DNA of 64,000 nt from Eledone cirrhosa (taxonomy: Eukaryota), in NCBI GenBank assembly GCA_964016885.1, contig OZ024745.1:95604001-95668000 (forward strand), in the 5' to 3' direction. The notes beneath the pieces are model-generated. The model saw nothing but the letters and a program-made list of their open reading frames with translations. It was not told where the DNA came from and searched no databases. Position 1 is the stretch's first letter; every line of letters starts with the position of its first letter. Positions 2,171 to 25,093 of this stretch are shown here, piece after piece. The position numbers and the translations under genes were made by a program.

Positions 2171-2180
2171 GATATATATC

Positions 2181-2510: not shown

Positions 2511-2531
2511 TATAATATATACATATATATA

Positions 2532-2687: not shown

Positions 2688-2719
2688 CCAGGATATATAT
2701 ATATATATATATATTTTTT

Positions 2720-2937: not shown

Positions 2938-2954
2938 ATATATATATATATATA

Positions 2955-3219: not shown

Positions 3220-6135
3220 TTTATATATATATATATATAACCCATGTTAGCGTGGAAGATAGACATTAAATGATGATGATATATTTAAAACAAAAACAGA
3301 ATGCCGGACTTTCATGGAATTAAAATTTACAGCATATTTCAATGGCCCAGCTCCATCATCCATTTATGATGCAAATAGGATGATCTCATCAGGTAACTTC
3401 AACGGGATTACAAAATATATATATATTTACACATCCATATATATATATATATTTATACATACATGTATATACACACACACATATATATATATATCATCAT
3501 CATTATCATCACCGTTTAACGTCCATTTTTCTATGCTTGCATGGGTCAGATGAGTCGTCCACAACGAGGAACAAGTCTGACCAGAATTGGCTATGCTGTA
3601 CCTTGCTCTGACGGGATTGTAAATTTGGCTGGGGTTTTTACAGCTGGATGCTCTTCCTACAATTTACTTAAGCTCACCATAGTCAGGCTTGCCGATGTTT
3701 ATCAGTTAGGACTGCAACTTATTGAGGATGCCTTTTTGTTACTCAATTCTCATGGAACCAATTCCAAGCCATGATGATGCTAACACATGGTTGAAAGTGT
3801 CTAGGGAGCTTCAGAACACTGTCTGTAGAAGTCAGAAACCTGTTCAGAATATGTCATATAACAATTGGCAGTGGTGATTTGATGTCTTCCTGGCTATGGG
3901 CAATCAGCTGTGGTCCCACTAACCTAGGCATAATGCTGCATTGTATAGATAGTAGAAAAATACATTAAATGTATTTCTAGCCTGACTGGCATCAACACCA
4001 GCCTTTCAGAGACAAAGGACTCAATTAGATTCTTCATCAATTTAATCTTAGCATTACCATCTTGTAAAGATAGCAAGACTATAATGGATAAAGAATTATT
4101 GAAGTGCACATATATTCATTGTTGACACCTCACATCTGCTACAATATGTGTTCATAGTAAGTGAAGTCTATACAGGAAAACATGCCACAATGACCTACCT
4201 AACACTAGTGTAATTTTTGTATTGTATCAGATTGTAGATCCTCTAATAATAAACTTTTAAAACTAGGCTTGTATATTCAAACATTTAAACACTGTGTATT
4301 TAAACATTTAAAGCAAAGCTTGTGTATTTAAACATTTAAAGCCAGGCTTGTGTATCTAAAATGCTTGAGATGTTCATATTTTTAATGTAAGTATACAATG
4401 ATATATAAAATGTATAGAGAATATGTAAAATATACAAGAAATCTCTGATATTTGGGAAAATAAAATAAAGATGAAAGAATTAAGTTTTGTTTGCAAGAGA
4501 GCTTACAGCAATTGGTGAAGAACAAATTGAATACAATTTGTTGACATAAAGTGTGCAGTGTTAACTTACAAGAAAGCTGAACACAAATAATTTTAGAAAA
4601 TCACAGGCTATAAAAAGCTTTGGTTGATGTATTCAAAAGTGATAGCTATGTTGTAATGGACATAAAAATCAAAATCAGTGATGCTTGTTGAAAGCAAAAG
4701 TGATAGGATTAGATGATAAAAGACAGTTGCAGTAGAAGCAGAACAAAGACTACAGAATAATGGGCCTAACCTATTAAATAAGACATATAATCAAGGAACG
4801 TTGATGATGGTGCATGGTAGATGCATTATATTCATACCAGAATAGAAAAAAGTCTTTGAAAAAATAACAATGATAGGAATAGAGATGCTAAAAATTATTA
4901 ATGACTAGAACCTCCATACAATAATAAATGTTTATAAACCTTACAAAATTGACTGTTCTATGGTGCAGTGTGCTAATGAGATTTAATGAATAGCCAAGTT
5001 TTGACAAAACAATCTGTGAGAAAGACTCTACCAGATAGTCCTTCATCTCCATTCCCATCTATAACTGAAGACTTGGGTCTAAATTTGAGCAAACTAACCA
5101 GATCCTACTAATATTTACGACATACATCTAGTCTTCTCTGAGACATAAATCTTCCATCCTCTATGCTTCAATTTTGTCTACACTTTAAGCAAACTCTGGA
5201 AATATGTCTGACAAACTACTTTCTAAATGAGCATATCTGTATATATATTTTGTGTCAACATGTAATAATACTTTCAGTTACAGACATAATAATACTGTAA
5301 CCAGCTTCATTTACATTTTCTTACACAAAAGAGCTGTGGGGAATTCAGTTTCCTAAAAGAGCACATATGATCTATATTGGATTTTTCTTGTTAAATGGGT
5401 TGATACCAAAATTTAGAAACAATCAATGCTGGTAGCAGCATTTAAAAAGCTGGTAATCTCAGATTGCCAATATGTTCCTTAAACAAAAAAATTCAAGCAA
5501 CTATTAACGTTATTAAGTCAAACTAAATACAACTTTTAAAATCAAACAAAGAAGAGCCATACATTAAAAACGTTGATATAAAACTATAGACTGTATTTTC
5601 AGCTTCTGGCAAATTTATAGATTAGATGAAAAGTCAAAAAATAAAAGTATCTATTCTAACAAAAGACATAGTACACCAAGGAATACTACCAGCTGAAAAC
5701 AAAATAAAATGTGGGTATGTATGTATGATATAATATTGTAGCTTATAGATTACATTTGGAAATGAAAGGTAATTTATTTCTAATTATTTGTCATGTAACA
5801 CTACATACCTTGATGTTACATTGCATAAAAAATGTAAATAAAAAAAATATAATAATAATAATAATAATAATTATAATAATGATTTCATTTATTGGCCACA
5901 AGGGCCGACATATAGGGGACAATACAAAAGACTGGGACAGTGGGGTTTTACAGAAAAATCGAGTAAACAATATGAATAACAATAACATAGTAACAAGAAA
6001 ATTACAACAAGAAAAAATTCCCCAATGGGGGGATGACCACCCAGGGTTTGCTCAGGTACCCCACCAATCCTGAACGACCCGACGCTTCGAGAGCACCCTG
6101 GAAGGGCACCCCCTCTCCTCCTCAAATTTACCTAC

Positions 6136-9100
6136 CTACAGCTGCATGACCAGAGTAGGCCCACTCACACGGGCCATTCTCGCCACATTCACCCACCTTT
6201 CAGCAAATGTACTGGGGAGCAGCACTTCCCTCTCCACCCTCACCTTCCTTTCCAAGTGAAACTTGAGAAAGTTGATGAGGGATTGGCCGAAGAGAAAAGT
6301 GTCTGTCTTCAGTCCTTTTAATCTGGTCCACCATATAACCTCTTTCGCTAGTGCCACCAGACAGAGGAAAATTGCCTGCCCTTCCTGGCCAAAAGAAGGC
6401 AGCGGGTCGATCTTCACTATGGACTCGGCCGATAGCCGGATCCGTTCTACACGTGACAAGAGCTGTTCAACATAACTCCACAAGTCAGTAATGCACGGAC
6501 ACTGGACGAGTGCGTGCAGAACGGTTTCGTTGCTCTGCGCACATCTTGGGCAGGTACATCTGACAGCACTTCCATGCCTGTAGAGTTTATCTCGAACCGG
6601 CAGTGCCCCCCGGTAGCACTGCCAAGCGAGGGATTTTTGGAAATTATCCATCGTCCTCGGCTCGAAAGTCCTCCGGTACAGACTGGTTAGTTCGACTTCG
6701 TTGACTCCCAGAGCCTCTCCGAGTGCGTCATCGCACTTGCTCACCACTAATCCTCTATAGAACTCAAGAGTGGAAGTTCCACTGACTGCATTGCCCGCTT
6801 GCTAGAAGGCAGTGAGTGCCTGGCAACATTCCAGATGCCAGTCACCCAGTCTCGGTCTCTTCTTGACCCAGGACTGCAATTCAGTCAAAGAAACGAGCTG
6901 TGGAAAGGCCCGTCTGATAAACGGCGACCACACCTGTTCACCGTTTAAGCAGAATATCTGGAGATTCCGCAGCCTTAGCGCATGCCTGCGCATCATTAGC
7001 CACGGCATGCCCAACCCTCCACGAAGAGGGTGCTGGCAGCAGATGGACAGCCTCACCAGCGGAACCTGATGCCTCCTCAAGAATTTGAAGAGGAGCCGCT
7101 CCAAGATGACGAGGCGCGAACGGGGGCAAGGGACGACGATGCACACGTTCGCCACCTCTGCCCGACCTTTCAGTGATAGCTTCATCCCAGCCCATTTCTG
7201 GGTGAGACTGGCTACCCTGCCCGTCACCTCGTCCCAATTCTTATCCACCTGGAGGTCTGGCCCGAACCAAACCCCTAGCAACTTTACCGGTCCATCCGTC
7301 TAGCGCCTAACGACGCTGTTGGACGGCATGGACTTGCCTCTCCAGGAGCCGAGTTGAAGCCCACCGACTTTTCCGGGTTAAGTTTTGCTCCCGTCAACCT
7401 TTCATATAAGTTGCTCATTTTGTTCCCGTCAACCTCCAATAAGTTGCCGACCACCTCGATTTCTGAGGTGTCCGACACCATCACGGTGATGTTGTCCGCA
7501 TAAGCCAACACAGCCTTTCCGCGTCCCGGTTCGAGCGGGATGCCCTGCAACAGCTACAGCTTCCGCAGTAAAGGCTCGAGAGTCAGTAAGTGCAGAAGGG
7601 AGGAGAGAGGGCATCCTTGACGGATCGATCGGTAGACCTGAAACGGTTCCGAGAGGTGGCCATTAATTTTGACCATCGAGCAGGTGCCGCTGTTCATTGC
7701 AGCGATCCAGCTTCTGAAGACGGGGCCGAAGCCAGCCGCCTTGAGGACAGCCTCCAGGTACCGATGGTCGACCCTATCGAATGCTTTCGATTGATCTAAA
7801 TTGATCAGAGCCCCACCGAAGCCAGGTTTACACCCCACCCTCTCTATGATGTATCGCATTAGGTGGAGGTTGTCGTGTATGGACTTGGTTGGGATTGCGC
7901 AAGTTTGCGCCTCCCCAACCAAATCCCCGACGACAAGCGCCAACCTCTTCGCTAACACCTTGGCCAAAATCTTAAACGCTGTGTTGAGCAGAGTTATGGG
8001 CCTGAAATTGTCTAATGTGTCCCTCTTGTTCTCGTCTTTCCTTATCAGCGTCACTACGCCCCGGCTCACAGAACTGGGAATACACCCATTTTGCTGCCAG
8101 TTGCAGTAGAGGGCTTCGAGGAGATTGGAGAACAAGTCTGGCATATTTACGTAAAGCTCGTAGGGCAGACCATCCAAACCGGGTGACTTGCGCCTCATGC
8201 AGCTGACAAGGGCATCCTGAATCTCGGCTGAAGTAATTGGCCTTTCGCAGCGCCCAGCGTCAGCCATCGAGAGTTATGGCAAGCCATCGAGGTAGGGACT
8301 GAAGTCCGCCACCATCTCTGACCCGCCACTTCCCCCGAACAACCAAGCAAAATGTTGGCGAAAGGCCTCACACATCCACTTGGAATCGCTCAGCTCGTGT
8401 CCGTCTCGGTCCGTTAAAGACCGAATCGTGGTTTTATCACCACGCTGCACCTCTGCCACGCGGGCCCATCGAACAGCTTTGGTTCCCTCGTTTCTCAGAG
8501 CACGCACCTTAGCTCTGACAATGCAACCTTCGTGTTTCGCATTGAAGAAATGGTCTATTGCCATTCTCGCCACTAGCACGTCAGTTGCAATGCCACTACC
8601 AATAGCCTTGTTTAACTTATCTACCAACTCCCCCTCCTTTCTATTTTTCTCTAACACTACTTCTTTGCTAAACTCTATCGACATTACTCTAATCTCTCTT
8701 TTGAGAGCCACCCACCATCTATTGTTGACGACTCCCCCTGTCAACCTTTTCTTAACTAAATTGTTGACCTGGTCCCTGTAAGCCTTACGTGCCAGAAATG
8801 ACATGTTTAGCTTCCAGTAACCAGGTCCTAACCTACGCGTCTTATCTAGGTCGACCATACAGATCACAAACTTTTGATCTGAATAGGCGACCATTTCAAA
8901 ATGTGGACAGCTTACACTATTTCTGTCTATTTTCCTAATGAATATCCTGACTATATATGATCTAGATGACCCTATGCGGTTAGCCCAGGCCCACACTGGC
9001 GCATTAGAGAAATCTAGTCGGTACCTGTCAGACAGTTGGAACTGGCTGATCAGGTTCTTGAGGCTTTTGCACCCCCCACTCCTATCGGATACTCCCACAC

Positions 9101-9554
9101 AGTCCCAGCGTGCGTCTAAGATGCCGTTCCAGTCCCCCGCTAACAGTAAAGGGCGAGACGTACCCAGAAAGGCTTCCAGATGTCTAAAGAAATCCGGCCG
9201 TCCTGCCCCAGTAGGAGTATAGACGGCCACCAGTCTAAAGGTACCACCTTCGTTATTGTTCACATCCAGGAGCACCAACTTCCCATCCGGGTCCCGGAAG
9301 ATTGACCTTACCTCGAGATCCAGGCCTTTCCTAAACAGCTCTGCCACCCCGCCTCTCATTCCCGGCTGGCTAACAGATGCAAAGATATGATAGTCGTCGA
9401 AAATGGGGGCTAGTGCGTGCGTGTCGGAAATCCTGGTCTCGCTGACTGCAATTACATCCATTTCTAGAGACCTGAGGCCGTTGAGCAGGTGACCCTGCTT
9501 CCAGGACGATCCCAGGCCTCGAACATTTAAACATCCTACTCTTAATACGGCTAT
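6136..9554 (-). pseudogene. Tx1 ORF2 (APE endonuclease + reverse transcriptase + zinc finger), disrupted
   Basis: Motifs LNVRG, SET, GDWN, WKLN, KSPGLDG, FRPITLLN, DQSKAFDRVDH, QGCPLS, YAD(N), GGLG, CPRC..ETVLHALVQC. Start is ATG>ATA; stops at 8274 and 7554 plus frameshifts. Confidence 0.9.
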
Positions 9555-9590
9555 GTTGGCAAGTTAAAAAGAGAGAGAGGAAAGGTTTAC

Positions 9591-11435
9591 TTACCTTCCG
9601 GGCTCTTGTGAAGGTCGGGTTGTTTGACCTCCATAGTTGGTGGGGTTTCTTTTGCGAACCCCTTTAAAAGTCTTGAAGTTGGTTTTACGTTCGGTGTTCC
9701 CACGTCCTAAGGAAAGCTGTCTCGTATTTCTTTGTATAATTTGATCGACATTCGCACCAGAACCAAATCTTCCAGCACGCGAAATGTGCTCCATTTAAAA
9801 ATTTCCCCCTCTTTTTGTATATTTTCACGAGGGCCATCAGTTCCTTGTTGGCCCTCCTGACGAGCATGAAGTTTTGTATGTTTTGTTGGTGTGATTTTAT
9901 TTGTTTGCGTGGCTGTGGTGGTGATGGTTTTGGTGGTGTTGTTTTGGTTGTGTCTGTGTTTGTTGTGAGTGCGGTGTCTGTGGTTTCAGATGTTTGTGTG
10001 TATATTTGTTCTTGCGTCTGTTTAGGTTGTTTGCGTTTGGATGGTGATGGTGGTGTTGATGTTGGTGTTATTGGAGAGATGTTTGTGTGGGTGGTATCTG
10101 GGTTTTTTTATTGTGGGTGATTTTGTGCTTTGTTGAGTTTTTTTTTCTTTTTGTGTTTACTTTTTTGTATTTTGGGGGATTTTGGTTTTCCCTCATCTTC
10201 ACTACTGGTAGATGAGGGGTCTCTGTCTGTAAGTGTGTCTGTATGTATGTTTATGGTTTTATTGGTGTGTGTATTTTTTGGGGGAGGGGAATTTGATAGC
10301 TTTCCTCTTTTCCCCCCTGGGTGGTCAATGTTAGTGGTGGTCTTCCTATTGGTGTTGTTGGTGGTTTTGCCGGTGCTGGTGTTGGTTGTGGTCCTCGCCC
10401 CAGCGTCAGCAGTAGTGGAGCCTTTCAACCCCTTGCCTCTTTCAGCAGTAGAGGGCAGAAGGCTCGCAAATGGGTTTTTTCCACACAAACAAAACACTAC
10501 GGCCTTTTGCCTTCGGTTATAATGTGAATGACCGTCCCATTCTGAAGGCGGATGTGGTTCGGGATTGTCTTCACATTCTCGGGCCTGATCTGGAGAAGGA
10601 TCTCCAGGTCAACCCCGGACCAGTCCTCTCTGGCCGTTCTGGTCACTTCTATAGGGACGGTATCCATCCCCTCCACAATCGCACATCCCAGAAACCACCA
10701 CATGTCAAGTCCTGGTGGGATTCTGGGAATGCGGAGACGGGCCGTTCTTTTTCCCATGTGAGAGGGGTACATTATGACCTTGCTGGTTTTGCAAGGATTC
10801 ATAGCTTGTTTCTTAGCGAGGGCTTCTGACTTGAACAACACCGAAATGGTGCCATACTGTCTTCCCCTCTTTATGTATTCGGTGTCTTCTCTGATGCACC
10901 TCAGCGCGACTTCGACATCTTGTGGGATTAAAGCTGCCCTTTTGGTTTGTGCTGAGATGCATCTATAATGCACCGTTCTGCGCTCCACTGCCTCAATAGC
11001 TTCTATCGGGACAGTTAAGTTGGCCCAGGTTTGCTCTTGCTTGATGAGCTTCCATGCCTGGGCCAACTTTTCATCTTTGTTTGAGAGGTCCATGTTGAAG
11101 CTTGGCCTCTTTTTTGCTGCTGCCGCAGCGAAAGTGTTCTTGTTTTCGTAGGGGGTGTTGTTGTTGGTGTTGTTGTTATCACTGTCGCTGTTATCATTGT
11201 TGTCTTTGTTGCCATCGTTGTTCTTGGTGCAGTTGGTATTGTTGCTGTTGGTGTTGTCGCTATTTGTTTTCATGTTAGTGGTGTTGATATTGTTGTTGCA
11301 TTTGTTTTGTTTTTTTTTATCTGTATTTTCGTTGTTGTTGTTACTGTCCTTTTTTTCAAAATTAGAGTTCTCATTGATATCTTTGTTTACATTGTTTGTG
11401 GTGGCGTTTGTGTTATCAATTTGTGTTAATTTCAC
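9591..11435 (-). pseudogene. Tx1 ORF1 (Asn-rich N-terminus, RRM-like middle, CCHC knuckle, Thr/Lys-rich tail), disrupted
   Basis: 312-aa ORF ending EGKRP*. Reading through the TAG at 10497 gives CFVCVEKTHLRAFC (CX2CX4HX4C). Confidence 0.75.
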
Positions 11436-11716
11436 TGTAGCGTTCCTCTCAACTTCTACGTCGTTGTCACATGACAGCAGACATATCGCTGGCGTGGCTC
11501 AGCCATGTTTTTTTTTTCTCCTTAAATGTTTTAACATGTAAAAAAATGTTCAAATATTTGGGCTAAAAGGCCCAAATATTATACTTTCCCCTTCACGGGG
11601 CAAAGTCTAAGGGATTTATATCCCTTACACAACAAGAAATATTTAACAACAAATAATTTTAACAGGCAAATAAAGCGACTTACTGGGAGCGAGCCAAAAA
11701 GACGTCCGAACAGACC

Positions 11717-11746
<30 letters not shown>

Positions 11747-11747
<1 letters not shown>

Positions 11748-13487
11748 TGGGGTACTGTCCTCTAGTAATATAAACATCAACTGTGGTATATTCCAGGGTG
11801 ACTCACTTTCACCCTTGCTTTTCTGCATAGCTTTAATACCCCTTACATCCAAACTTAATAGAACAGGGTACGGTTATAGAATTGAGAACAAAAAAATAAA
11901 CCACCTATTTTATATGGATGATTTGAAGCTATATTGCAAAGATAATGACGAACTGGAAGGCCTTTTGCAGACAGTAAAAACGTTTAGCCATGACATCAGG
12001 ATGGAGTTTGGACTTGACAAGTGTGCAAAAGCCACTTTCAAGAAGGGGAAGCTTGTCAACTCAGACTCAGTTGAATTGGATGCTGAAACAATGATAAAGG
12101 AACTTGAGCAGGAACAAACCTATAAATACTTAGGGATTAATGAGGGCTCTGGCATACAGCATGCAAGTATGAAAGAGGGGATAAGGAAAGAATGCTACAG
12201 GAGAGTATGTGCAGTTCTGAGATCAGAACTAAACGCTCGTAACAAGGTGCTAGCCATAAATTCTTTGGCAGTCCCAGTTGTCACTTATAGCTTCGGTGTG
12301 TTGAACTGGAATATGAGTGAAATCAAAAGAATCGACACTAAAGTCTGTAAGCTACTGACCTGTAATAGGCTGACCACCCAAAAGCAGATGTGGATCATCT
12401 TTACCTTCTTAGAACTCAAAGAGGCCGTGGCCTGATCCAATTTGAACTTGCTTACAAGACCAAAATCATTGGACTGGCCAAATACCTTGAAACAACTAAC
12501 GACTGTATGCTGAAACTTGTTGAAAAGCATGAGAGAAATAAGAAGCTTCATTCTATCTTGAAGGAGAGCAAAAAATATGCTACTGATCTCGTGCTTGATA
12601 CCCAGGCTGGACAGACTAAAGAAACTGTTACAACTGATGCTGCTAGGCACATAAAATTACTGGCAAAAGCAAAAGGGCAAGGACAATTAGCATCAAATTG
12701 GGAGCAGAAACCTCTGCATGGCAAATATGTGGCCCGTAGCAAACAAGCTGATGTTGACCAAAAGCACACCCATCAGTGGTTACGTAGTTCAGGGCTAAAG
12801 GCGGAGAGTGAAGGCTACATCTTAGCTGCCCAAGATCAAAGCTTATTGACTCGTAATTACCAGGCCAATGTGATGAGAAACGGAATAAACCCAAAGTGCT
12901 GATTCTGCAATGCTGAGGTTGAAACAATGGATCATTTAGTCTCTGGATGTAAAGTTTTAGCACCAGTAGAATACAAATATAGACATGACAGAGTTGGCCA
13001 ATATCTACACTGGGTAATATGTTGGCATTACAAAATCAAAGCTTCAGACAAGTAGTACAACCATCACCCTGAGGCTGTAACTGAAGGAGAAAAAGTAACA
13101 ATTCTCTGGGACTTTCCTGTACATACTGACAGGACCATAAAAGCAAATAGACCTGACATCATTGTAAAAGATCAACATAACAAGGTCTGTTTATTGATAG
13201 ATATGAGCATCCCATGTGATCACAATATCGCGGCAAAAGAATTTGACAAGCTATGAAAATATAAAGATCTGCTTATTGAAATTGAGAAAATGTGGCACCT
13301 CAAGGCCGTTACAATACCAGTGATTGTGGGAGGACTGGGAATGATCAAGAAAGGAACAGAACAATATTTGCGAATGATTCCTGGTTTACCCTCTCTGCAC
13401 GAGGTGCAAAAAATTGTTTTGACTGGTACTGCACACGTATTGAGAAGAGCACTATCTCTGTAAGATTGATATCCCTCCTTGTATTTA
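11747..13487 (+). mobile_element. 5'-truncated R4/Dong-like RLE retrotransposon (RT C-terminal half + CCHC + restriction-like endonuclease), pseudogenised
   Basis: GIFQGDSLSP, YMDDLKLY, YKYLG, CxxC..ETMDHLVSGC, RHD, NRPDI, IDMSIP. Starts at (AAT)n. A probable 3' UTR resumes after the RTE insertion (17918-18096) and ends in (AAT)n. Confidence 0.85.
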
Positions 13488-16400
13488 CATTACATTTTCT
13501 GTTTCTATTAATTGCTAAATACGTAGGTTTTTGGACGTATTTCACAGAACAAATTTTGTATTTTTGTTAATCGCTTGTTAAATGCATGGACCCCATTCAA
13601 TCATTACCTTCTTGCTAGCTATTTTCAAACCTTAATTCCTAACGTATTTTCAAACCTCAATCCCTAATTCTAGCGTATCTTCAAAACAAAAAAAAACAAA
13701 ATCCTTTCCTTCTTCCTTCTTCGAAGGCACGGGGCGGTCAAACGCCTAACACTCACAGCCATCATGTGGCCCCCTCCCCTCGCTCTCTCTCACTCTCTCT
13801 CTCTCTCTATAAATATATGATAGGAATTCACTTCGCCAAATTTCATTTCATTGCTTGCTGTCCACGATATTCATGTAAACGTAATGTACAGACTTCATCT
13901 CTCTCTCTCCACAAATCTTAATTCTAGCGTATTTTCAAAACAATCCATATTTCGTATCAAGTCCAAATAGCCAATCTATCGCTAAAACAAACTACATTTT
14001 CTGTTTCTATTAATTGCTAAATACGTAGGTTTTTGGACGTATTTAACAGAACAAATTTTGTATTTTTGTTAATCGCTTGTTAAATGCATGGACCCCATTC
14101 AATCATTACCTTCTTGCTAGCTACCCAACACCCCTACCCCCACGCACCACCATTGCTATTACGTGGACCAATCATAAAACAGAGCCCCCACGCATCACCA
14201 GTATTATTACGCGGACCAATCAGAAACCAGAGGCCTATACTATCGCTTGCCTGGTTGCCTTTCGATATACGATATATGATGGATGGATGGACTGCGGAAT
14301 CCTGGAGAGTGGAGGTGAGAGAGAAAAATCTGGACGCTCAGCGACAATGCCAAAGATAAAGACAAATTCACCTCTTGGACGAGAATGCGAGCACTCCTCA
14401 TTGTTTCGACCGCGGACGGCTAACATAACCCCATCGCCCCCCGCCCCTCACCGCCCCCAACCCCCAAACGCAATCCAAAACTTCAGAGTTGGTACCATAA
14501 ATGTAGGCACCCTAAAGGGTCGCGCTAACGAGGTTGTAGAAATGCTTGAACGTAAGGAGGTCGATGTTTGTTGTATTCAAGAGACCAGGAGGAGGGGTGG
14601 GTCTGCTAGGTTCATTGAGGGTAAAAAAACGATGTTATAAGCTTTTCTGGGTGGGAAACGACGATGGGCTGGGTGGAGTAGGAATCATGGTAGCAGAAAA
14701 GTGGGCAGATAAGATAATAGACGTAAATAGAGTGAACGACAGAATAATTAAAATACGACTTGTCCTCAATAGAACTACGGTGACAGTAATATCTGCGTAC
14801 GCACCCCAATCCGGACTGCCCGGCACTATAAAAGACAGATTCTATGAGACACTGATGCTAACTACCTCCCAAATATCCGACAGTGACTATATAATTATCG
14901 CAGGCGACCTAAATGGTCACGTTGGACAACATTGTGACGGCTATGACGAAATCCATGGAGGCTATGGGTTTGGTACTAGAAATGAGGAAGGCGCCAGAAT
15001 CCTGGAATTCTGTGATGCAAATAACCTAACTATCTGTAACACTAACTTCAAAAAACGTGACAATCACCTGATCACCTATAGATCCGGGGAACACACAAGC
15101 CAGGTAGATTATATCCTTACCAGAAGACGTGACAGAGTGTCTGTTGTTAACACTAAATCCCTCCCCCATGAAGAATGCACCTCCCAACATAGACTGATAA
15201 TTAGCGACCTCATAGTCAGGACGAGACGTACTCGACAACAGAAGAGGACTATCCTCAGGAGGAAAATATGGAAGCTAAAGGACCCCACAGCCAGGAATAA
15301 ATTTCAAAGCATATTACTTGATGCTTTCGACAGTAAGGAAGAACATTTAGAGTCGGACAATATAGAGGGAGAGTGGGAATTTCTGAAAGCAAACCTGCTG
15401 TTGGCGACAGACGAGGTCTGTGGCTGGAGCAGGCCTGTAGGCAGGAGGAGAGTAACATGGTGGTGGAACAGTAAGGTGGAGGGGTCAATTAAGGCCAAAA
15501 AGCAGGCTTGGAAAGTATGGCGGGATGGGGGAAGTAGAGAGGACTATCAAGTGGCCAGGAGGGAAGCTAGGAGACAAGTGTACTTAGCAAGAAGGGAAGC
15601 TGAGGAAAGAAAGTTCAAGCATGTTCTACAACGCGATGACCAAAAACGTGAGGTGTTCAGGATTGCTAGGCAATGCGTCAAGGAAAACCGTGATATTGTC
15701 GGGGAGAAGTGTGTACTAAACGACGATGGCACACTTGCCATCACCGACGCTGATAAGAAGGTAGCTTGGAAGTGTCACTATGAAAGGCTACTAAATGAGG
15801 AGAATAATTGGGAGAAAGGCAGTCTCCCCCATATCGACCCAATAGAGGGACCAGCAGTGTTAGTCGAGGGGAGTATAATAAGTAAGGCAATCAAGGATAT
15901 GAAGACTGGTAAGGCGGCTGGGCCTTCGGAAATAGTTGCTGAGATGCTGAAGGCATCTGGAACGGTGGGACACACCATGGTCACCCGCATAGTTAACCAA
16001 GTCGTACAGAATGGGGTTGTTCCGAAGGACTGGCATAGCAGCATCATCGTTAACTGTTATAAGGGTAAAGGAGACACCCTAGATAGGAGTAACTATAGAG
16101 GCATTAAATTAATCGACCAGGTCATGAAGGTCACGGAAAAAGTAATAGCGCAACTAATCAGAGAGAGAATTGACCTAGATGAAATGCAGTTCGGGTTTGT
16201 GTCAGGCAAAAGTACCACAGACGCTCTTTTCATAGTACGACAACTACAGGAGAAGTACCTAGCTAAAGGTAAACCCCTCTACTTAGCTTTTGTCGACTTG
16301 GAGAAAGCCTTCGACAGAGTCCCCCGCTCCATTATCTGGTGGGCTCTTAGAAAACTAGGCGTTGACGAATGGCTTGTGAGGGCTATACAAGCCATGTATA

Positions 16401-17917
16401 AAGAAACAGTCAGCAAGGTTAGAATTAACAACGAATATAGTGAAGAGTTTAGCGTAAAAGTTGGCGTCCATCAGGGCTCTGTTCTCAGTCCACTACTATT
16501 TATTATTGCCCTTCAGGCTATAACAGAGGAGTTCAAGACAGGCTGCCCATGGGAACTCCTATACGCAGACGACCTGACACTCATAGCGGAATCAATGGCC
16601 GAGCTAGAGAAGAAATTCCAAACATGGAAGCACGGCCTAGAGTCAAAAGGACTTAAAATTAACCTGGCTAAGACCAAAGTACTAGTTTGTAGGAAAGAAA
16701 ACAAGGCGGCGGTCCCTTCTGGGAAATGGTCGTGCTCGGTGTGTAGGAAAGGCGTAGGTAGAAACTCCATTTTATGTCCTAAATGCAAAGTATGGGTGCA
16801 TAAAAGATGTAGTGGGATCACAGGTAAGCTAACTAAGAACATAGATTTTACATGTGGCCGGTGCTCTGGTGCAATAAGTAGCAGCAAGTGCCCACAAACT
16901 ACTAGCTCTTTCAATTGCGCAGAGGGTTCTATAGAAATAGTGGACAGCTTCCGTTACCTGGGCGATAAAATCAGCAGTGGGGGAGGGTGCTCTGAAAGTA
17001 CTGTAGCTAGAGTCAGAACTGGTTGGAAAAAGTTCAGAGAGCTTATACCACTATTAGCTGCTAAAGGGTTCTCACTAAAAATGAAAGGCAGGTTGTACGA
17101 TGCCTGCATACGAACAGCAATGCTGCATGGCAGTGAGACCTGGGCATTGTGTGCAGAGGATATACGCAGACTAGAGAGGAACGAAGCTTGCATGCTCCGC
17201 TGGATGTGTAACAGTAATATACGTGAACGGCAAAGCATAAACGAACTAAGGAAAAAATTAGAGATAAGAGGGATCAGATGTTGTTTACTCGAGAGAAGGC
17301 TACGTTGGTATGGACACGTGATGCGCATGAAAGTCGATAGCTGTATAACAAAGTGCAGGGCAATAAAGATAGACGGTAGTCACGGAATAGGCAGACCTAG
17401 AAAAACCTGGGACGAGCTGATAAACTCCGACATCACACACTTACACCTCTCCAAGACAATGTCACTGGACCGAGACCTTTGGCGGTACTCAGTAACAGAG
17501 AAGACCCGCCTTACCTAAATATATAGTAAAACCTACTCCAGCCAGTAGGCATCTCTAACAAAATACACCCCGTCCCACCACCACCACCCCCACCCGATCC
17601 ACACCACCCCGTTCTATGTAAAGTTATGTTGGTGCCGCGCCATCGAGGCCGAAACAAATGAGATCATGTAGGTGTCACGACAAAAAAACACACAGTCCAC
17701 GCTGTAATGTGGCCGTGTAGGCAACACGGTAAAAACCTCCCAGACCCACACTGTAAATGTGGTTGGTGTTAGGAAGGGCATCCAACTGTAGAAAACCTGC
17801 CAGACAGTCCTATGCGAGCAAGACAATCACTCTTGCCTCAAGTGGGACTACCCCCGTCCAAACCCATGCAAGCGTGGAACACGGACGTTAAACGTTGATG
17901 ATGATGATGATGATGAT
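13488..17917 (+). mobile_element. Near-intact RTE-clade LINE with a partly duplicated 5' UTR and (GAT)n tail
   Basis: Single long ORF, ~400 bp 3' UTR and (GAT)n tail. 13491-13622 is repeated at 13993-14123. Confidence 0.92.
14347..17518 (+). CDS. RTE ORF: APE endonuclease + reverse transcriptase + PHD-like zinc finger; one +1 frameshift at A7 run 14623-14629
   Basis: GTINV, QET, GDLN, DYIL, SQH, YRGIKL, FVDLEKAFD, QGSVLSP, YADD, CSVC...CPKCKVWVHKRC...CGRC, RWYGHV. Comparison with the copy at 62666 (GGTAAAGAACGATG) shows the extra A. Confidence 0.9.
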
Positions 17918-18096
17918 ATGCACATGTGTATATATGTATACCGTTTTTTTAAAATTATAATCAATGTGCTATATTAACTGGCTTACCAATGCACACTGTA
18001 AATTTATTTGCCCTAGGTGTCAGGAAGATACTCAGCATATATCTCAGAAACAATAATGAAAGAAAATAAAAATAGTAACAATAATAATAATAATAA
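17918..18096 (+). mobile_element. Probable distal 3' UTR of the Dong-like element, ending in (AAT)n
   Basis: Lies immediately after the RTE tail and ends AATAAA...(AAT)n. Inferred continuation of 11747-13487. Confidence 0.45.
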
Positions 18097-18202
18097 TTGT
18101 TTCTACTTTAGGCACAAGGCCAGCAATAACCCAGTGCATTACTGGTACTTTATTTTATCGATCCCGTAAGGATGAAAGGCAAAGTTAACCTCGGCGGGAT
18201 TT
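18095..18202 (-). mobile_element. 5'-truncated second-family SINE (Meta-domain-like) fused to the Tx1 3' end
   Basis: Matches the 3' 110 bp of the SINE at 32274-32459; joined to Tx1 copy 2 through AAAT microhomology. Confidence 0.8.
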
Positions 18203-21200
18203 ATTGGCCACAAGGTCTGACACAAAGAAAAACATTAGAGACAGCACAGAACAGTACAGGACGATACAAAGTGGGTTTTGTTCGTGTAAATAGGTTATAA
18301 CAACATAGAAATTGGGATAGCAGCTATTCGACATAGCTCCACAAGTCAGTAATCCTCGGGCACTGAATGAGTGCGTGCAGGACGGTTTCGTTGCCCTGCG
18401 CGCATCTCGGACAGGCTCGGCTGACAGCACCTCCATCCCTGTAGAGCTTATGATGAACCGGCAAAGCTTCACGGTAGCACTGCCAAGCCAGGGATTTCTG
18501 GAAGTTGTCCAGATCCAGGACTACAGCTCTGTCAAGATGAGCTGGGGAAAAGCGCGTCTGGCAAACGGCGACCACACCTGTTCACCGTCAATGAAGCACC
18601 AGAGATGTCGCAGCCTCAGCGCATGTTTGCGCATCATCAGCCATGGCATGCCTAGTCCTCCACGCAACGGGTGTTGACAGCAAATGGATCGTTTGATCAT
18701 GGAAGCGCATCCCTTCCACAAAAAGCGGAAGAGAAGGCGCCCCATTTTGATCAGAGTTGGGCGGGGGCAAGGTACGACGGTCAGGAAGTAACAGATGATG
18801 GACGCTATGTATGCATTCGTCATCTCCGCCCGGCCTTTCAGAGACAGCCTTCTCTCGGTGAGAGAGGCCACCCTGCTCGTGACCTCGCTTCAGTTTTCTC
18901 CATCTGGAGGTCCGGACCGAACCAGACCCTAAGCAATTTAACCGGTCCTTCCGGCCAGCGCCCCACGACGCTGTCGGACGGCATGGACTTGCCTCTCCAG
19001 GTGCCGAGCTGCAAGCCCACCAACTTTTTCTAGTTTATCTTTGTTCCTGTCACCGCTTCGTATTTCTTGAGAGCAGTGTCGAGCATTTGGACGTGTTTGG
19101 TGCTCGACAACACCACGGTGACGTCCTCGGCATAAGCTGACACGGATTTCCCGCATCCCAGTTTGTGTGGGACCCCCCTCATCGTCTCCAATTTGTGCAG
19201 TAACGGCTCGAGGGCCAGTACGTACAAGAGGGGGCAACCCTGTCGGACCAAGCGCATGATGATGAAAGGCTGCGACAGGTGACCATTCACCCTCACAATC
19301 CAGTAGATGTCGCTATGCACCGCAGCGATCCAGCCCCTAAAAATGGGCCCGAAGCCGGCTGCCTCGAGGACCGCAGCCAGGTACCGATAGTCGACCCTAT
19401 CAAATGCTTTAGATTGATCCAAGTTGATCAGGGCCCCACCCATGCCAGGTTCTTTAACCACCCTCTCTATGATGTATCGCATGAGATGGAGGTTGTCGTG
19501 GATGGATCTGTCCGGAATGGCACATGTCAGCACCTCCCACCAGATGTCCGACGACAAGCGCCAATCTCTTTGCTAACACCTTGGCCAAAATCTGCGTTTA
19601 GCAGAGTCATGGGCCTGATGTTGTCTATAACGTCCACTTTGTTCAGGTCTTTTCTCAGCAGCGCCACCGCTCTTCGGCTCACAAAACTGGGAATGCTCCC
19701 ATTCTGCTGCCAGTTGCAATAGACATCTGCCAAGAGATCGCCGAACAAGTCTGGCATATACGCATAAAGCTCGTAGGGCAGACCATCCAAACCTGGCGAT
19801 TTACCTCTCGTGCAGTCAACTTCACAGATCACAAATTTGTGGTCCATGTAGTCAACTACTTTAAATTGTGGACAACCTACACTAGCCTTATCTGTTTCCC
19901 TACAGAATACCCTATCTAAATACGATCTGGTTGACCCGATGCGGTTTGCCCATGTCCACATTGGCACATTCAGATAATCCAGTCTATACCGTTCAAAACG
20001 TCTGAGCAGGTTGTTGAGGCTTTTACACCCTCCTGCCCTGTCTACTAGCCCCACATAATCCCAGCGTGCATCTAAGATACCGTTCCAGTTGCCCACTAAC
20101 ACTAAAGTGCGGGACGTTCCAAGAAAGGTCTCTAGATGTCTGAAGAAATCTGGCCGTCCTGCCCCTGTTGGGGCGTAGACGGCTACTAACCTGAAAGCAT
20201 TGCCTTCTCTGCCGGTCACGTCTAGCACCACCGACTTACCTTCTAGGTCCAGGAAGATGGCCCGTATGGCGAGATCCAAGCCTCTCTGGAAAAGCACAGC
20301 AACCCTCCCTCCGATCCTGGACAGCTGGGAGATGCGCATACATCAGCCGCCAAAGATCAGTGTGAAGGCTCGTGCTTCGGAGATTCTGGTCTCGCTGATG
20401 GCCACCACATCTATGTTTAGTGACCTGAGGTCGTTGAGCAGGTGATCCTGCTTCCAAGATGACCCCAGGCCACGTACATTTATACTGCCTATTCTAAGTA
20501 TGGCCATGTTGGATGAGAAACGGGATGAGTGAGAAAGGATCACTTACCTTGATCATGTGGTGAAGGGACAGTAGAATCGTCCCTTTGGCTGGTCATGGGT
20601 GTTTCCAAGAGGATGTCGGTGTATATCCTCTTGGTAACCGACCCTCTGAAGTCTCCAACTGCGTTGGGGAATTTTTGCTTTAAAAGTTTGTAATGTTCTA
20701 TTGAGATTTCAATAATGCTTATGTTTGTCAGGAGAGTTCTTGGTGTTGGTGGGGTGTAGTAGTTTTTTTCTGTGATGTGTGTGTGCTGCTTTATATGTTG
20801 TAGGAGTTCTTTATTTGCCATGTGTACCTTTTGGAGGGAGGGGCGATTTTGTTGTTGTTTTCTTGTTGCTGTTGGGTGTGTGTGTTTTGTTGTGTTTGCG
20901 ATGTTGGTGTTTTTGGTGATGCTGGTGGTGGTGTGGTTGTTGTTGTTGGTGATGCTTGTGGTGGTGATGGTGATGGTGTTGCTGCAAGTCTCCTTGCAGC
21001 CTTTACCCCTCTTTGTCTGCCTTCGCTTTTGGAGGGTGAAGCTAAGGGTTTTTTCTTTTTTGTGGCAGACCGTTTGCCACTTCCCTCGCGCCTCACACCC
21101 CATGTCAGACCCCGCAGCGTCTTGGAGGGACATGAGCTCCACTGCTGTTGGTGGTGGTAGTGGAGCCCACTCCGGCGTTTTTACCGCCGGTGTAGCTAAT

Positions 21201-22659
21201 GCGACTGTTAGTGTTGCTGCCACTGCTGCCGCTGCTTTAGTTGTCCATGGCCTTGGTATGGGTGCCATGGACGTTGCCCTTCTACTCACCATGGAAGGGT
21301 CTTCTGCCTCTCTTGCCTGCCCTGCTCTTGGTAACAGCAGATCAGGCATCGGAAGAAGGGGGCCCTCTTCTTGGCTGTCTTCTGCGGGCAGAAGGCTCTG
21401 GGGTAACCCTTCTGCCCACAGAGATAGCACTTTGGGCGCCTTCCTTCCACGCTTATAGGGAGTTGGAGCCCTTCTTCGAGGTCTATGATGTTTGGGATGG
21501 CCTCGATGCACTCTTGGTCAGTCTGTATTAGCATTTGCATGCCTATTCCTGACGAGTTCTCTTTTCCCATTCTCTGTATTTGCAGTATGGTGGTCTTCTC
21601 GATTCCAGCCAGTACAGACGCGGCCAGCCAAGGTATGGGTACATTGGACGGGACTTGGGTCACTTTGACCCTCACAATTTTCTGCCCGCAGTAGGAGGGC
21701 ACCAAGACTATCTCCTCACTCTTTAGGGTTTCCAAAGAGTGAGACTTCACCTCTAGGGGATTGGCAAAAAGCACGTCTACTGTGGATTACTTTTTGCATC
21801 GGGTCATGTGGGTTTTGCGTGACCAGACGCACCTCAAGGCCTTTTGGATTTGAGCCTCCTTGGCTCTCTCCACCTGATGTGACATTTTGCTTACGGTGCG
21901 GTAAGTCACCATGCGCAGTTGCTGGTCTTTGAAGAAATCAGGTGGAGGTTTCAGGGAAACTCTGTTGTCGTTTCTCGACACCATGGCTCTTGCGACTGCC
22001 ATTTCCTCCCCAGTGACTAGCACTGTTTCTATATTTCGGGCCACACCTGCGAAAGAAGTGGCATCATTATTGCAGCCGCTACTGGTCTTGTTGTTGGTGT
22101 TGTTGCTGTTGTTACTGCTACAAACGGTGTTGTTGCTGTTATCACTGTTGTAGTTGGTTGTGTTTTTGGTGCCACCGTTGTTGTTTTCTGTGCAATTTGT
22201 ATTGTTGTTGTTGCTTATTTTCTTGTTAGTGGTGTTAATATCATTGTTGCATTTGTTGTCATTTTTTCTGTTGTCTGTATTATGGTTGACGCTGTTATTG
22301 TTGTAGATGGTGTGGTAATTTTTTCGAAATTAGTGTTCTCAATGTTACCTTTGTTCCCGTTGTTTGTGGTGGTGTCTGTTTAACAATGTTTGTAACCCTC
22401 CTCTCAACTTTTACGCCGTTGTCAGACGACAGCAGACATATTGCTGGGGGGCGTGGCTCAGCCATGTTTTTTTTTTTTTTTTTAAAGTAAAATGTTCAAA
22501 TATTTGGGCCAAAAGGCCCAAATATTTTACTTTCCCCTTCACAGGGCAAAGTCTAAGGGCTTATATCCCTTACACAACAAGAAATATTTAACAACAAATA
22601 ATTTTAACAGGCAAATAAAGCGACTTACTGGGAGCATGCAAAAAGCGTCCGAACAGACC
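18199..22659 (-). mobile_element. Second Tx1-like LINE (different subfamily), internally deleted, 5' end at (AAT)n
   Basis: ORF2 from ATG 20507 (MAILRIGSINVRG) with deletions at ~19813, ~18521 and ~18333. ORF1 has EGRRPKCYLCGQKGYPRAFCP. The 5' UTR is nearly identical to copy 1. Confidence 0.88.
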
Positions 22660-22679
22660 GATAATAATAATAATAATAA

Positions 22680-23070
22680 TTGGTTTTGGACAAGGAAAAG
22701 AGATCGTGCCTGATTGTAGATGTAGCCTGCCCATTTGACACGAGAGTGCAAGAAAAGGAGAGGGAGAAAACTAACCGATACCAGGACTTAAAGTGGGAGT
22801 TAAAAAGGATTTGGAACTGCCATGAAATCAAGGTTGTCCCGATTGTCATAGGTGCACTAGGTACTATCAAAAAGAGTTTCCAAGGATGGTTAAAGAAGAT
22901 TAGTCCAGCCCTGCTTTTTGGAACACTTCATAAGGCATGCTTGCTGTGAACAGCAAGAACCCTCCGATACGTCCTGAACATCTGAGGCTGCAGGTAGCGG
23001 CTTGATATTCATTTCAACAAACTTTCCAGTTATATCTTAACTATAATAAAGAAAGGAGTGCGGGACTGCG
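22680..23070 (+). mobile_element. R4/Dong-like RLE element 3' fragment
   Basis: LIVDVACPFD...EKTNRYQDL...VVPIVIGALG endonuclease C-terminus, directly after (AAT)n. Confidence 0.8.
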
Positions 23071-23220
23071 TCCAGAATATATATTTTTACCCCGTTTGTA
23101 AAATAACTTGGATTACTTTGAATTAATAATGAATTAATATTACATAATTTATGTGCTAAATTTTGTGGCTGTTGATTAAATATATTTTATAGCTTATTTA
23201 AAGACCTTTAAAATTCCCTC

Positions 23221-24182
23221 TTGCACCCTCAGAGTATCTCAACAGGCATGATAGAGCTGCACAGTATATCCACTGGGTAATTTGCAAGGACCTGGACCTG
23301 CACGATCATAAAAACTGGTGTGAACACAGCCCACTCCCAGTACTAGAAAGAGATCATATCTCACTAAGAAACTTTTCTGTTCAAACTGACAGAAAGACAG
23401 CTGCAAATAAGCCAGATATATTGAAGAATTTTAGACAAAAGACATGACTGTCCCAATCAATATAAATGTATCTGTCAAAGCCTACCAAAAATTGAAGTAA
23501 TACAAAGATCTTCAAATATAAATTGTCAAAATGTAGAAACTCAAGACTAGAGCAATATCTGTGGTTGTAAGAGCGTTAGGGATAACAGCAAAGAGAGTTG
23601 ATTATTACCTATCTCAAATCCTAGGAAATCACAGAATGGAAGAAATTCAGAAAATAGTACTCAAGGGGACTACTCATATCCTGCAAAAAATAGTGTCTAT
23701 GCAGCTCCAAAACAATTCTTTTTTGTTTACTTATTATCAAAAGCACCTTTAGAAGTATATAATAGCACATATCTTTTACCGTTTTTTTAATCATCATACA
23801 ATCATTTTAGCACCAAACAACTACTTTTAAACAAACTTATAATTTTCTTATGTTTTGACAGATATTTTCTAGAACAATACTACCTATGAACCCAAGGTAC
23901 ACAATTAAAATATAATTCCCTATCACTTCATTCTTCTCCAAAAACATGGCAGTTATCAACCATCCTAGTCATAATGTCTGCCTGAACTTATAACTTGCTG
24001 TCTTTTGGTGTCTCTGAGTAAGACTTGGAGTCAGCTTGTACAAACACAAAGAATGGTAGCAGCCCAGCATATCAAGTATATAAACAACAGCCTGAAACCA
24101 TCAATCACATTGATTGTCTCCATGTGTAGCCTTCTTGCACCCTCAGAATATCTCAACAGGGACGGTAGAGCTGCACAGTAAA
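23221..24182 (+). mobile_element. Older degenerate R4/Dong fragments (RHD and RLE region, 3' UTR, second RHD fragment)
   Basis: LAPSEYLNRHDRAAQYIHWVICK at 23221, ANKPDI, VVVRALG, EIQKIVLKGTTHIL. The LAPSEYLNR segment recurs at ~24132. Confidence 0.7.
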
Positions 24183-24204
24183 ATCCAATCATCAAAATAA
24201 TAAT

Positions 24205-24400
24205 GATTTCTGATTTAAGCACAAGGCCAATAATTTGAGGGGAGGGGAAAGTCGTTTAAATCGATCCCAGTGTGTTACTGGCGCTTTATTTTATCGACCC
24301 TGCAAGGATGGATGGCAAAGTTAAACTCGGCCTGATTTGAACTCAGATCATAAAAGGCCATAACTATATGCTGCAAAGTATGTTGTCCAACACTCTACCA
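24205..24400 (-). mobile_element. Second-family SINE, degenerate
   Basis: GCACAAGGCC...TTTTATCGACCC...GGCAAAGTT...GAACTCAG on the plus strand, next to AATAATAAT. Confidence 0.7.
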
Positions 24401-24457
24401 GTATTCAAATAATGAGCCAAGTTTGATAGGGAAGACAGAGTGATGACATAAGGCATT

Positions 24458-24612
24458 CAATCCGTGAGCATCCTATTTTTTTAAGGATCTATAATGATTA
24501 CATTAACTAATGAGATTTGGTAAAATAAAGTATGCTCAATCCATGAGCATCCTATTTTTTTAAGGATCTATAATGATTACATTAACTAATGAGATTTGGT
24601 AAAATAAAGTAC
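24458..24612. repeat. 78-bp tandem duplication
   Basis: CAATCCRTGAGCATCC...TAAAATAAAGTA occurs twice. Confidence 0.85.
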
Positions 24613-25093
24613 GAGTAATGCACTGGGTAATTGCTGGCCTTGTGCCTAAAGTAGAAACAATTATTAGTTTAAATGTTGATTCATCTCTCTGTAGTCAATA
24701 AATGAATTAACAGTAGTATAGCAAGGTAATTCAATAAAAAAAAAAAATAAACTCATTCTTAATTAAAAGAAATCCATACGTAATCACGCTTTATATTGTG
24801 AAAATTGTAATATTGATATAAAATTAATGTGTGCTACACAAGAAGAGATACTTTTTACAAGAAAAACAGTTTATTCCCTCAAGTTATGAAATTGTATGAA
24901 CAATTATCTTTGAAAGCCTTCAGGGAATAAACAAATTTGTTTTAATTTATATTAAAATTGTACTGAAAAATTCCCAAACTCTATAATATAAGGAAAATGG
25001 TGTATATAACAAATTCTATAATTACTTCAATAGGATTAATTTGCAGAAAACTGATTGTTAAATATAATTTCAAAATTACCTTAGTCAAAAATA

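What the first reader, a model, noticed from the sequence alone, without database searches (positions are those of the whole stretch)
5850..24670. 19-kb retroelement array on (AAT)n, with Tx1 and R4/Dong elements in opposite polarity
Seen order: (AAT)n <Tx1-A (AAT)n Dong>[RTE inside] (AAT)n <SINE <Tx1-B (AAT)n Dong> ... Dong> AATAAT <SINE. Both Tx1 5' ends (GGTCTGTTCGGACG) abut (AAT)n head-to-head with a 5'-truncated Dong-like element. Known: Dong targets (TAA)n, and some Tx1 families (Kibi, Koshi) target TC/TTC microsatellites. Inference: an (ATT)n-targeting Tx1 family with an APE nuclease and RLE-nuclease Dong elements converge on the same repeat from opposite strands. Each insertion would regenerate the target through its tail, giving a self-extending array.
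Basis: partly seen in the sequence, partly recalled or inferred. Interest (0 to 1): 0.72.

Follow-up and report, generated by a model that had tools for sequence, protein, structure and literature searches.

The report
Opposite-strand retrotransposons sharing ATT repeats
Two unrelated kinds of jumping gene in this animal genome sit in the same three-letter ATT repeat and face opposite ways, likely because their enzymes cut opposite strands and each insertion leaves more repeat for the next; this extends a known lifestyle to a target I did not find in print.

Summary
The array is mostly as described, and the pattern holds genome-wide.
- Tx1-like LINE heads (L1 group, APE endonuclease) abut ATT. 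In the youngest, intact subfamily 319 of 325 heads follow a perfect (ATT)3.
- Dong-like RLE elements sit on the AAT strand: 43 of 65 5' junctions have AATAAT, 0 have ATTATT (background 2%).
- All 26 Tx1-Dong contacts across an ATT tract, among 200 sampled Tx1 ends, are opposite-sense.

- There is no special Tx1-Dong partnership. Dong is 12 of 108 upstream neighbours; Tx1 tails are 32 and SINE tails 24.
- The nick motif is likely short (Y|ATTAT). The SINE and short Tx1 fragments carry duplications running into unique DNA.
- The ATT next to full-length heads is likely partly copied with the element: 53 copies of one subfamily share an ATC|GG junction.

The SINE shares polarity, target and a CUUGU tail hairpin with the LINE, so it is likely its passenger. 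Tx1-clade membership was not tested by phylogeny. The scan noted this system many times before on other DNA of this genome. It is a new variant of known microsatellite targeting.

The parts
5850..5880 (.). (AAT)n tract; the (ATT)n tail and target of Tx1-A
5881..11716 (-). Tx1-A: full-length (5.84 kb) L1-group LINE. ORF1 remnant about 9590-11498; ORF2 (APE-RT-zf) 6139-9590, broken by stops and a frameshift
   Evidence: Pfam Exo_endo_phos, RVT_1, zf-RVT; 91% to a full-length copy elsewhere; 84% aa to the intact ORF2
11717..11746 (.). (AAT)10 between the Tx1-A head and the truncated Dong-A 5' end
11747..13490 (+). Dong-like family A, 5'-truncated (RT end, CCHC, RLE), first part
   Evidence: 95% to Dong_A reference positions 2126-3842; 88-92% aa to the L212 ORF
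13491..17915 (+). RTE-type LINE nested in the Dong-A 3' UTR; 992-aa open frame 14540-17518; (GAT)n tail; 131-bp duplicated 5' piece (13491-13621 = 13993-14123). Not at an AAT tract
17916..18079 (+). Remainder of the Dong-A 3' UTR
   Evidence: 96% to Dong_A reference 3847-4003; contiguous in other copies
18080..18097 (.). (AAT)6 shared by the Dong-A tail and the SINE tail (tail-to-tail)
18098..18203 (-). 3' half of the ATT-tailed SINE, joined directly to the clipped Tx1-B tail
18200..22659 (-). Tx1-B: head-bearing copy with internal deletions; its tail lacks ATT
22660..22679 (.). AAT tract whose first unit is GAT, i.e. the heritable ATC|GG junction of one Tx1 subfamily
22680..23035 (+). Dong-like family B 3' fragment; last about 25 nt and the AAT tail are missing
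23220..24196 (+). Old Dong-like fragment (tail about 24055, no AAT) followed by a second coding fragment (about 24048-24196)
24197..24402 (-). SINE variant inserted in a short AATAAT site, with duplication-like ATTATTT(T)GA flanks
24600..24670 (+). SINE 3' fragment with its own ATT tail, opposite to the other SINEs, after a 79-bp tandem duplication

Best explanation
The array is a stack of independent retrotransposon insertions in one ATT/AAT repeat, in which an L1-group (likely Tx1-clade) LINE and its likely passenger SINE lie on the ATT strand and Dong-like RLE elements on the AAT strand, likely because the two endonucleases nick opposite strands. Inferred steps: (1) The LINE's APE nuclease nicks the AAT strand at a short site (sense Y|ATTAT), and the exposed ...ATAAT-3' end primes on the RNA's (AUU)n tail. 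(2) The second cut falls about 10-20 nt downstream, giving the duplications seen at SINEs and short LINE fragments. (3) Full-length LINE RNA likely carries one or more ATT units at its 5' end, which anneal to the tract and lock the junction at ATT|G; this fits full-length copies ending up inside tracts. (4) Dong nicks the ATT strand and brings an (AAT)n tail. (5) Duplication plus tail leaves a tract on both sides of every insertion, so sites are reused. The two clades share a substrate, not a machinery or a partnership.
For: SHOWN, Tx1 ends:
- 319 of 325 young heads have a perfect (ATT)3 directly upstream.
- 158 ATTATT plus 53 TTATC among 235 exact older heads.
- 105 of 108 sampled heads have 3 or more units.
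- Truncated Tx1 junctions: ATTATT 17 of 53, AATAAT 2 of 53.

SHOWN, Dong and control:
- Dong junctions: AATAAT 43 of 65, ATTATT 0 of 65; background 2%.
- Dong tails with 2 or more AAT: 60 of 66.
- RTE-type (GAT)n tails followed by ATTATT or AATAAT: 0 of 33.

SHOWN, polarity: Dong neighbours of Tx1 ends are opposite-sense in 12 of 12 (heads) and 14 of 14 (tails; 13 by script plus L121 read by eye). One more Dong contact (L189, internal) is also opposite-sense.

SHOWN, SINE and duplications:
- 56 of 93 SINEs have a duplication running into unique DNA. 53 of these start RTTA (39 ATTATT), median about 16 nt, with a pyrimidine before in 40 of 53. The false rate on mismatched pairs was 31 of 300.
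- The same kind of duplication occurs at short Tx1 fragments L122, L146, L171, L295 and L300.
- ATC|GG in 14 of 20 sampled heads of the GGACGC subfamily vs 0 of 48 other exact heads.
- L262 duplicates an ATC variant on both sides.

SHOWN, self-extension: left neighbours of 108 heads are Tx1 tail 32 and SINE tail 24. A Dong tail precedes 20 of 61 Dong 5' junctions. Ten heads lie 5.8 kb apart at G000:C1:423.37-423.42 Mb.

SHOWN, enzyme: intact 1150-aa APE-RT-zf ORF2.

PRECEDENT: R2 RNAs that carry upstream target give uniform, heritable 5' junctions (PMC3774820, passages). TRAS1 and SART1 enter one repeat in opposite directions (PMC7265360, passages).
Against: - Only 4 of 29 longer truncated Tx1 copies have ATTATT at the apparent 5' junction. 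I attribute this to later deletions and nested insertions, which was not shown.
- Two truncated copies have AATAAT there, and L143 looks like an insertion on the other strand.
- 28 of 93 SINEs show no duplication.
- No nicking, RNA 5' end or empty site was observed.
- Leader annealing cannot be separated cleanly from a plain preference for long tracts. The SINEs that host full-length LINEs mostly lie in long tracts or behind LINE tails themselves (read by eye).
- Dong's cut phase was not resolved.
- Samples are the first places on the largest contigs or the best BLAST hits, not a census.
Confidence: 0.72

Rival explanations
1. The LINE is a strict long-(ATT)n specialist whose nuclease cuts both strands in phase inside a tract, with no 5' leader on the RNA; the SINE is moved by a different, less specific enzyme.
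For: 0 of 33 full-length copies with both ends have a duplication running beyond the tract. The run behind SINE tails is a median 7 units when a LINE follows vs 2 in controls. Host SINEs often lie in long tracts.
Against: A tract-only cut gives ATT|C, not the ATC|GG shared by 53 copies. Short LINE fragments carry SINE-type duplications into unique DNA. SINE and LINE share tail layout and polarity.
Confidence: 0.13
2. There is little DNA targeting. The ATT flanks are mainly element-encoded (5' leader plus tail), priming needs only RNA-DNA pairing at nicks in AT-rich DNA, and the microsatellites are products rather than targets.
For: Heritable ATC junction. Only 4 of 29 long truncated copies have ATTATT upstream. 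36 of 108 heads have no recognised neighbour.
Against: 30% of heads sit on a Tx1 tail and 22% on a SINE tail, although these families cover about 3.6% and 2.3% of control DNA. Duplications start at ATTAT with a pyrimidine before. Dong, which abuts only 3 of 56 control tracts, neighbours 26 of 200 Tx1 ends.
Confidence: 0.08
3. Tx1 and Dong form a real partnership in which one seeks the other's ends.
For: Dong adjacency exceeds control tracts: 14 of 92 vs 2 of 56 and 12 of 108 vs 1 of 56 (p 0.03, 0.04). Both window heads face Dong.
Against: Same-family and SINE neighbours outnumber Dong. Dong's own neighbours are mostly Dong and SINE: Tx1 tails beyond 5 of 66 tails, Tx1 heads before 2-3 of 61 5' junctions. 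Long control tracts are already Dong-rich (2 of 6).
Confidence: 0.04
4. The arrays grew mainly by unequal crossover or tandem duplication rather than by repeated insertion.
For: The 10-copy same-subfamily array with near-constant spacing.
Against: The window array and most sampled chains mix different families and truncation points. Recombination may explain only the homogeneous runs.
Confidence: 0.03

Closest known systems
Kibi (TC)n, Koshi (TTC)n and crocodilian (TTCC)n/(TTTC)n Tx1 families (PMC4494074: passages and sections 15-16 read; supplement unavailable)
   Same: APE-encoding L1-group LINE placed in a microsatellite; passes that paper's criterion of more than 20% of flanks.
   Different: The target is ATT, not a pyrimidine tract. 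The host is an invertebrate (likely octopod; recalled resemblance of the SINE, not shown by a call). The tract is shared with an RLE clade. Kinship to Kibi and Koshi was not tested.
Dong (R4 clade, Bombyx mori); TAA repeats upstream of its 5' end (PMC3774820, passages; original paper PMC309301 not held)
   Same: Single ORF with RT, CCHC and PD..D..K nuclease motif; AAT/TAA on both sides; same-sense tandem chains.
   Different: At least three or four coexisting families here, interleaved with an APE LINE and a SINE on the other strand.
TRAS1 and SART1 in (TTAGG)n (PMC7265360, passages)
   Same: Two families enter one simple repeat in opposite directions. The nuclease recognises only 2-3 units, and TRAS1 nicks between T and A.
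   Different: Both are APE (R1-clade) elements confined to telomeres. Here the pair is APE plus RLE, dispersed over thousands of sites.
R2 elements whose RNA carries upstream 28S target (PMC3774820, abstract and passages)
   Same: Uniform 5' junctions, and junction variants that propagate with the element, like the ATC|GG variant.
   Different: R2 is RLE-type and uses a ribozyme. No ribozyme was found here (Rfam at gathering score over window 5000-45000 gave only a tRNA at 28261), and no RNA end was seen.
SINEU with Tx1-Mar in crocodilians (PMC4494074 section 16); stringent L1/SINE pairs in monocots and Chlamydomonas (PMC3472496, passages)
   Same: SINE assigned to an L1-group LINE by shared target, or by a shared 3' stem-loop with compensatory changes.
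   Different: Here target, polarity, duplication type and tail hairpin (loop CUUGU) are all shared in one animal pair.

Membership tests
L1 group of non-LTR retrotransposons | ORF2 with N-terminal APE endonuclease, RT and C-terminal zinc region | tested here: met
   Pfam on P0001; GDWN, SDH and YADD motifs present
L1 group of non-LTR retrotransposons | ORF2 closer to L1 than to other solved LINE proteins | tested here: met
   E 1.7e-58 to human L1 ORF2p over residues 14-864 vs 2e-22 to R2; few clades have solved structures
Tx1 clade | RT phylogeny groups with Tx1L, Keno, Kibi, Koshi | not testable with these tools
   No named reference was obtainable: 68 homologues and 10 clusters carried no informative names
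Tx1 clade | ORF1 with a gag-like CCHC knuckle (feature recalled, not from a call) | tested here: inconclusive
   C-x2-C-x4-H-x4-C is visible in P0002, but Pfam gave no hit and PDB only weak CCHC hits, E 0.15-5
Tx1 clade | Target specificity (one sequence type in more than 20% of flanks, PMC4494074) | tested here: met
   319 of 325 heads; 17 of 53 truncated junctions
R4/Dong clade | Single ORF: RT, then CCHC, then restriction-like nuclease | tested here: met
   1136-aa frame in L218 and 711-aa frame in L212; PD..D..K..KY.DL motif matched by script in family A only, read by eye in family B
R4/Dong clade | Insertion in (TAA)n | tested here: met
   43 of 65 5' junctions; 60 of 66 tails
R4/Dong clade | RT phylogeny with R4 and Dong | not testable with these tools
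   No named reference sequence was available
Stringent SINE-LINE pair | Shared 3' end with a stem-loop | tested here: met
   Loop CTTGT in 4-bp stems. LINE stems GGCC/GGCC 71, AGCC/GGCC 55, AACC/GGTT 34 of 180; SINE TGGC/GCCA or GCCT. The hairpin is predicted, not probed
Stringent SINE-LINE pair | Mobilisation in trans by the LINE's ORF2 | not testable with these tools
   Needs a cell assay; other ATT-tailed LINEs as possible partners were not surveyed

The most novel reading that the evidence does not exclude
A still-active APE LINE lineage keeps swapping its 5' head and ORF1 yet always carries an ATT leader copied from its own target. With its SINE and several RLE-type Dong families it forms a strand-partitioned guild that manufactures most of the long (ATT)n microsatellites of this 3-Gb genome: the repeat is the guild's product as much as its target, and 5' joining, not nicking, supplies the specificity.
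Probability: 0.3. Interest if true: 0.72.

Novelty: new variant of a known kind. Interest (0 to 1): 0.5.

Why it matters
It adds an ATT target to the microsatellite-specific L1-group LINEs. It also shows the TRAS/SART kind of strand partition between two different nuclease classes at dispersed sites. The youngest subfamily has intact ORFs (about 99% identical copies, 325 heads), and a SINE records its cut sites in unique DNA. That makes a long-standing question testable in one system: how much of LINE site choice comes from the nuclease, from RNA-DNA pairing at the 3' end, and from 5' joining. It also bears on where long ATT microsatellites come from in large animal genomes.

Tried and rejected
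- RNA evidence: no RNA holder was listed.
- Empty allele: contigs laid on L269 were swamped by other copies and showed no joint across the element among the rows listed.
- Named references for a tree: none; the Atlas gave no answer; no tree was built.
- Ribozyme or known RNA family: none in the array at gathering score.
- Unique-sequence duplication at full-length copies: none in 33.
- SINE duplications as a record of pre-insertion tract length: 9 cases printed, mostly uninformative. L177 suggests about 4 units becoming 5 + 6, read by eye.
- Host gene: 60 of 121 non-TE frames were scanned; only DUF7041 at 3-461 hit.
- 'Tx1 minus/internal' neighbour calls were dropped as low-complexity matches to AAC-rich ORF1.
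- Four tail-anchored copies (L178, L179, L181, L182) were left out of the truncated set as full-length members of other ORF1 subfamilies. Own-window and duplicate loci (L001, L031, L061, L091, L071, L072) were left out.
- Literature: seven searches ran and one was rejected for syntax. None listed an ATT-specific Tx1 family. One search returned only irrelevant papers.
- Not visible to me: Kojima and Fujiwara 2004 (not read), Repbase, the target labels in Fig. 3 of PMC4494074 and its supplement. Such a family may be recorded there.


Full report
Setting. The window is G000:C5:95604001-95668000 of a 3.0-Gb assembly. The SINE and LINE content looks octopod; this is a recalled resemblance. A repeat annotation of Octopus vulgaris lists Dong-R4 and L1-Tx1 among recently active LINEs, and the part I read does not discuss targets (PMC13282606, part 1 of 3).

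1. Observation. It runs: AAT tract, full-length Tx1-A (-), (AAT)10, 5'-truncated Dong-A (+), (AAT)6, half SINE (-), Tx1-B (-), AAT tract, Dong-B fragment (+). Dong-A is split in its 3' UTR by an RTE-type element; the halves are contiguous in other copies. Departures: Tx1-B's tail joins the SINE with no ATT, and Dong-B and the third Dong have no AAT tail. The SINE at 24207 sits in a short AATAAT site with a duplication-like flank rather than on a Dong tail, and the last SINE piece is on the + strand. All LINE copies in the array are broken or truncated except the 992-aa RTE frame.

2. The Tx1-like family. The window head motif occurs 235 times exactly. 158 copies have ATTATT directly upstream, and 53 more have TTATC with the GGACGC variant. 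One tail motif occurs 5199 times. A protein search exposed a young subfamily with a different head, about 99% identical copies, a 642-aa ORF1 frame and a 1150-aa APE-RT-zf ORF2. Of its 325 heads, 319 follow a perfect (ATT)3. At least five different heads occur, and each follows ATT where seen. ORF2 is closest to human L1 among solved proteins. Tx1-clade membership could not be tested because no named references were available.

3. Is the ATT a target or part of the element? Both. Evidence for a target: truncated copies lack the head, yet 17 of 53 have ATTATT at the junction (13 of 24 short, 4 of 29 long) against 2% background, and 2 of 53 have AATAAT. Short fragments such as L122, L146, L171, L295 and L300 carry 13-17-nt duplications that start at (A/G)TT and run into unique DNA. 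Evidence for an element-encoded part: among sampled exact heads the junction reads ATC|GG in 14 of 20 of one subfamily and 0 of 48 others, and none of 33 full-length copies has a duplication beyond the tract. This matches R2 elements whose RNA includes upstream target and whose junction variants propagate (PMC3774820, abstract and passages). Full-length copies still favour long tracts: the run behind a SINE tail has a median of 7 units when a LINE follows and 2 in controls, and such SINEs mostly lie in tracts or behind LINE tails (by eye).

4. Dong. Three families with (AAT)n tails form same-sense chains. They encode RT, CCHC and a restriction-like nuclease. AATAAT lies at 43 of 65 5' junctions and ATTATT at none. 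60 of 66 tails have 2 or more AAT. RTE-type tails, a control, are followed by neither motif (0 of 33).

5. Polarity and adjacency. Left of 108 full-length heads lie Tx1 tails (32), SINE tails (24), head-to-head Dong (12), no recognised element (36) and 4 internal or low-complexity Tx1 matches; same-sense Dong was never seen. Right of 92 tails lie 14 tail-to-tail Dong (13 by script plus L121 by eye) and no same-sense Dong. In 400 kb of control DNA, 56 (ATT)>=3 tracts have Dong on the right twice and on the left once (two Dong-plus calls there were a SINE inside the library entry, masked). The excess is modest (p 0.03 and 0.04). Two of the six long control tracts already touch Dong. Seen from Dong, neighbours are mostly Dong and SINE. 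The pairing is real but is explained by a shared tract.

6. The SINE. Of 93 full-length copies from all loci (20 from controls), 56 have a duplication into unique DNA. 53 of these start RTTA, mostly ATTATT, with a median near 16 nt and a pyrimidine before in 40. The finder's false rate was 31 of 300. Only 11 of 93 have (ATT)3 at the 5' junction. The SINE lies on the same strand as the LINE: beyond Dong tails, 21 SINE tails are opposite to Dong, and one exception occurs at a Dong 5' junction. Its tail has the LINE's layout: a 4-bp stem, loop CUUGU, an A-rich spacer, GAAA and (ATT)n. The LINE stem varies GGCC/GGCC, AGCC/GGCC and AACC/GGTT, the last a double compensatory change. Mobilisation by this LINE is inferred.

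7. Mechanism. Shown: strand, phase, neighbours, duplications and intact enzymes. Inferred: the APE nick on the AAT strand at T^purine with priming on the (AUU)n tail; a second cut 10-20 nt on; 5' joining through an ATT leader; the Dong nick on the ATT strand; and regeneration of tracts by duplication plus tail. Self-extension is supported by tail neighbours, by a 10-copy array and by L262, where an ATC variant appears on both sides. Homogeneous arrays could also grow by unequal crossover.

8. Known systems and novelty. Microsatellite-specific Tx1 families on pyrimidine repeats and a Tx1-mobilised SINE are described (PMC4494074, passages and sections 15-16). Target specificity is common in the Tx1, R1 and RLE clades (PMC4640811, passages). 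Opposite entry into one repeat is known for TRAS1 and SART1 (PMC7265360, passages). Stringent L1/SINE stem-loops are known in plants and an alga (PMC3472496, passages). Searches listed no ATT-specific Tx1 and no APE/RLE pair on one repeat, but Repbase, the 2004 survey and the supplement of PMC4494074 were out of reach. The scan's own notes report this system from many other windows of the same genome. My reading was written before the first look-up and the counts above are my own. I looked for the hairpin after noticing the tail similarity; the notes agree. Two paper leads (PMC7265360, PMC3472496) were also named there.

Verdict: real, genome-wide and well supported as a pattern; a new variant of a known kind; interest 0.5.

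Noticed in passing
G000:C1:423367689-423420172; L280: Ten heads of the young subfamily in tandem at about 5.8-kb spacing; shorter runs at C1:181.41 Mb and C2:264.52 Mb.
   Followed up: partly
L151, L154, L156, L161, L163, L262: At least five unrelated-looking 5' heads and divergent ORF1s on related ORF2 and tails, each following ATT: repeated head or promoter swapping within the family.
   Followed up: partly
window 14540-17518: The RTE-type ORF has a PHD-like zinc finger (aa 732-775, Pfam PF00628) just after the RT match.
   Followed up: no
window 13491-13992: A 131-bp duplicate of the RTE 5' start plus about 370 bp of other sequence precedes the RTE body inside the Dong 3' UTR.
   Followed up: no
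window 51085-53000 and 62413-64000: Further copies of the same RTE family: 3' fragments at 96% and 99%, one inverted, and a 5' part at 92%.
   Followed up: no
window 3-461 (-): DUF7041 hit (E 1e-17), probably a fragment of another mobile element (inference).
   Followed up: no
window 36879-37267, 39446-39842, 41226-41612: Head-to-tail SINE dimers and trimers; the second SINE lands in the ATT tail of the first, with matching duplications.
   Followed up: partly
L020, L074, L235, L239, L264: An unidentified repeat (seen in five loci) with an internal TAATAATTATTAAT site that is used by Tx1, SINE and Dong insertions.
   Followed up: no
window 28261-28324 (+): Weak tRNA match at gathering score, probably the head of another SINE (inference).
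   Followed up: no
P0004-P0035: A group of unnamed 1150-aa relatives at 38-44% identity, some in clusters of hundreds of members; whether they share the ATT target is unknown.
   Followed up: no
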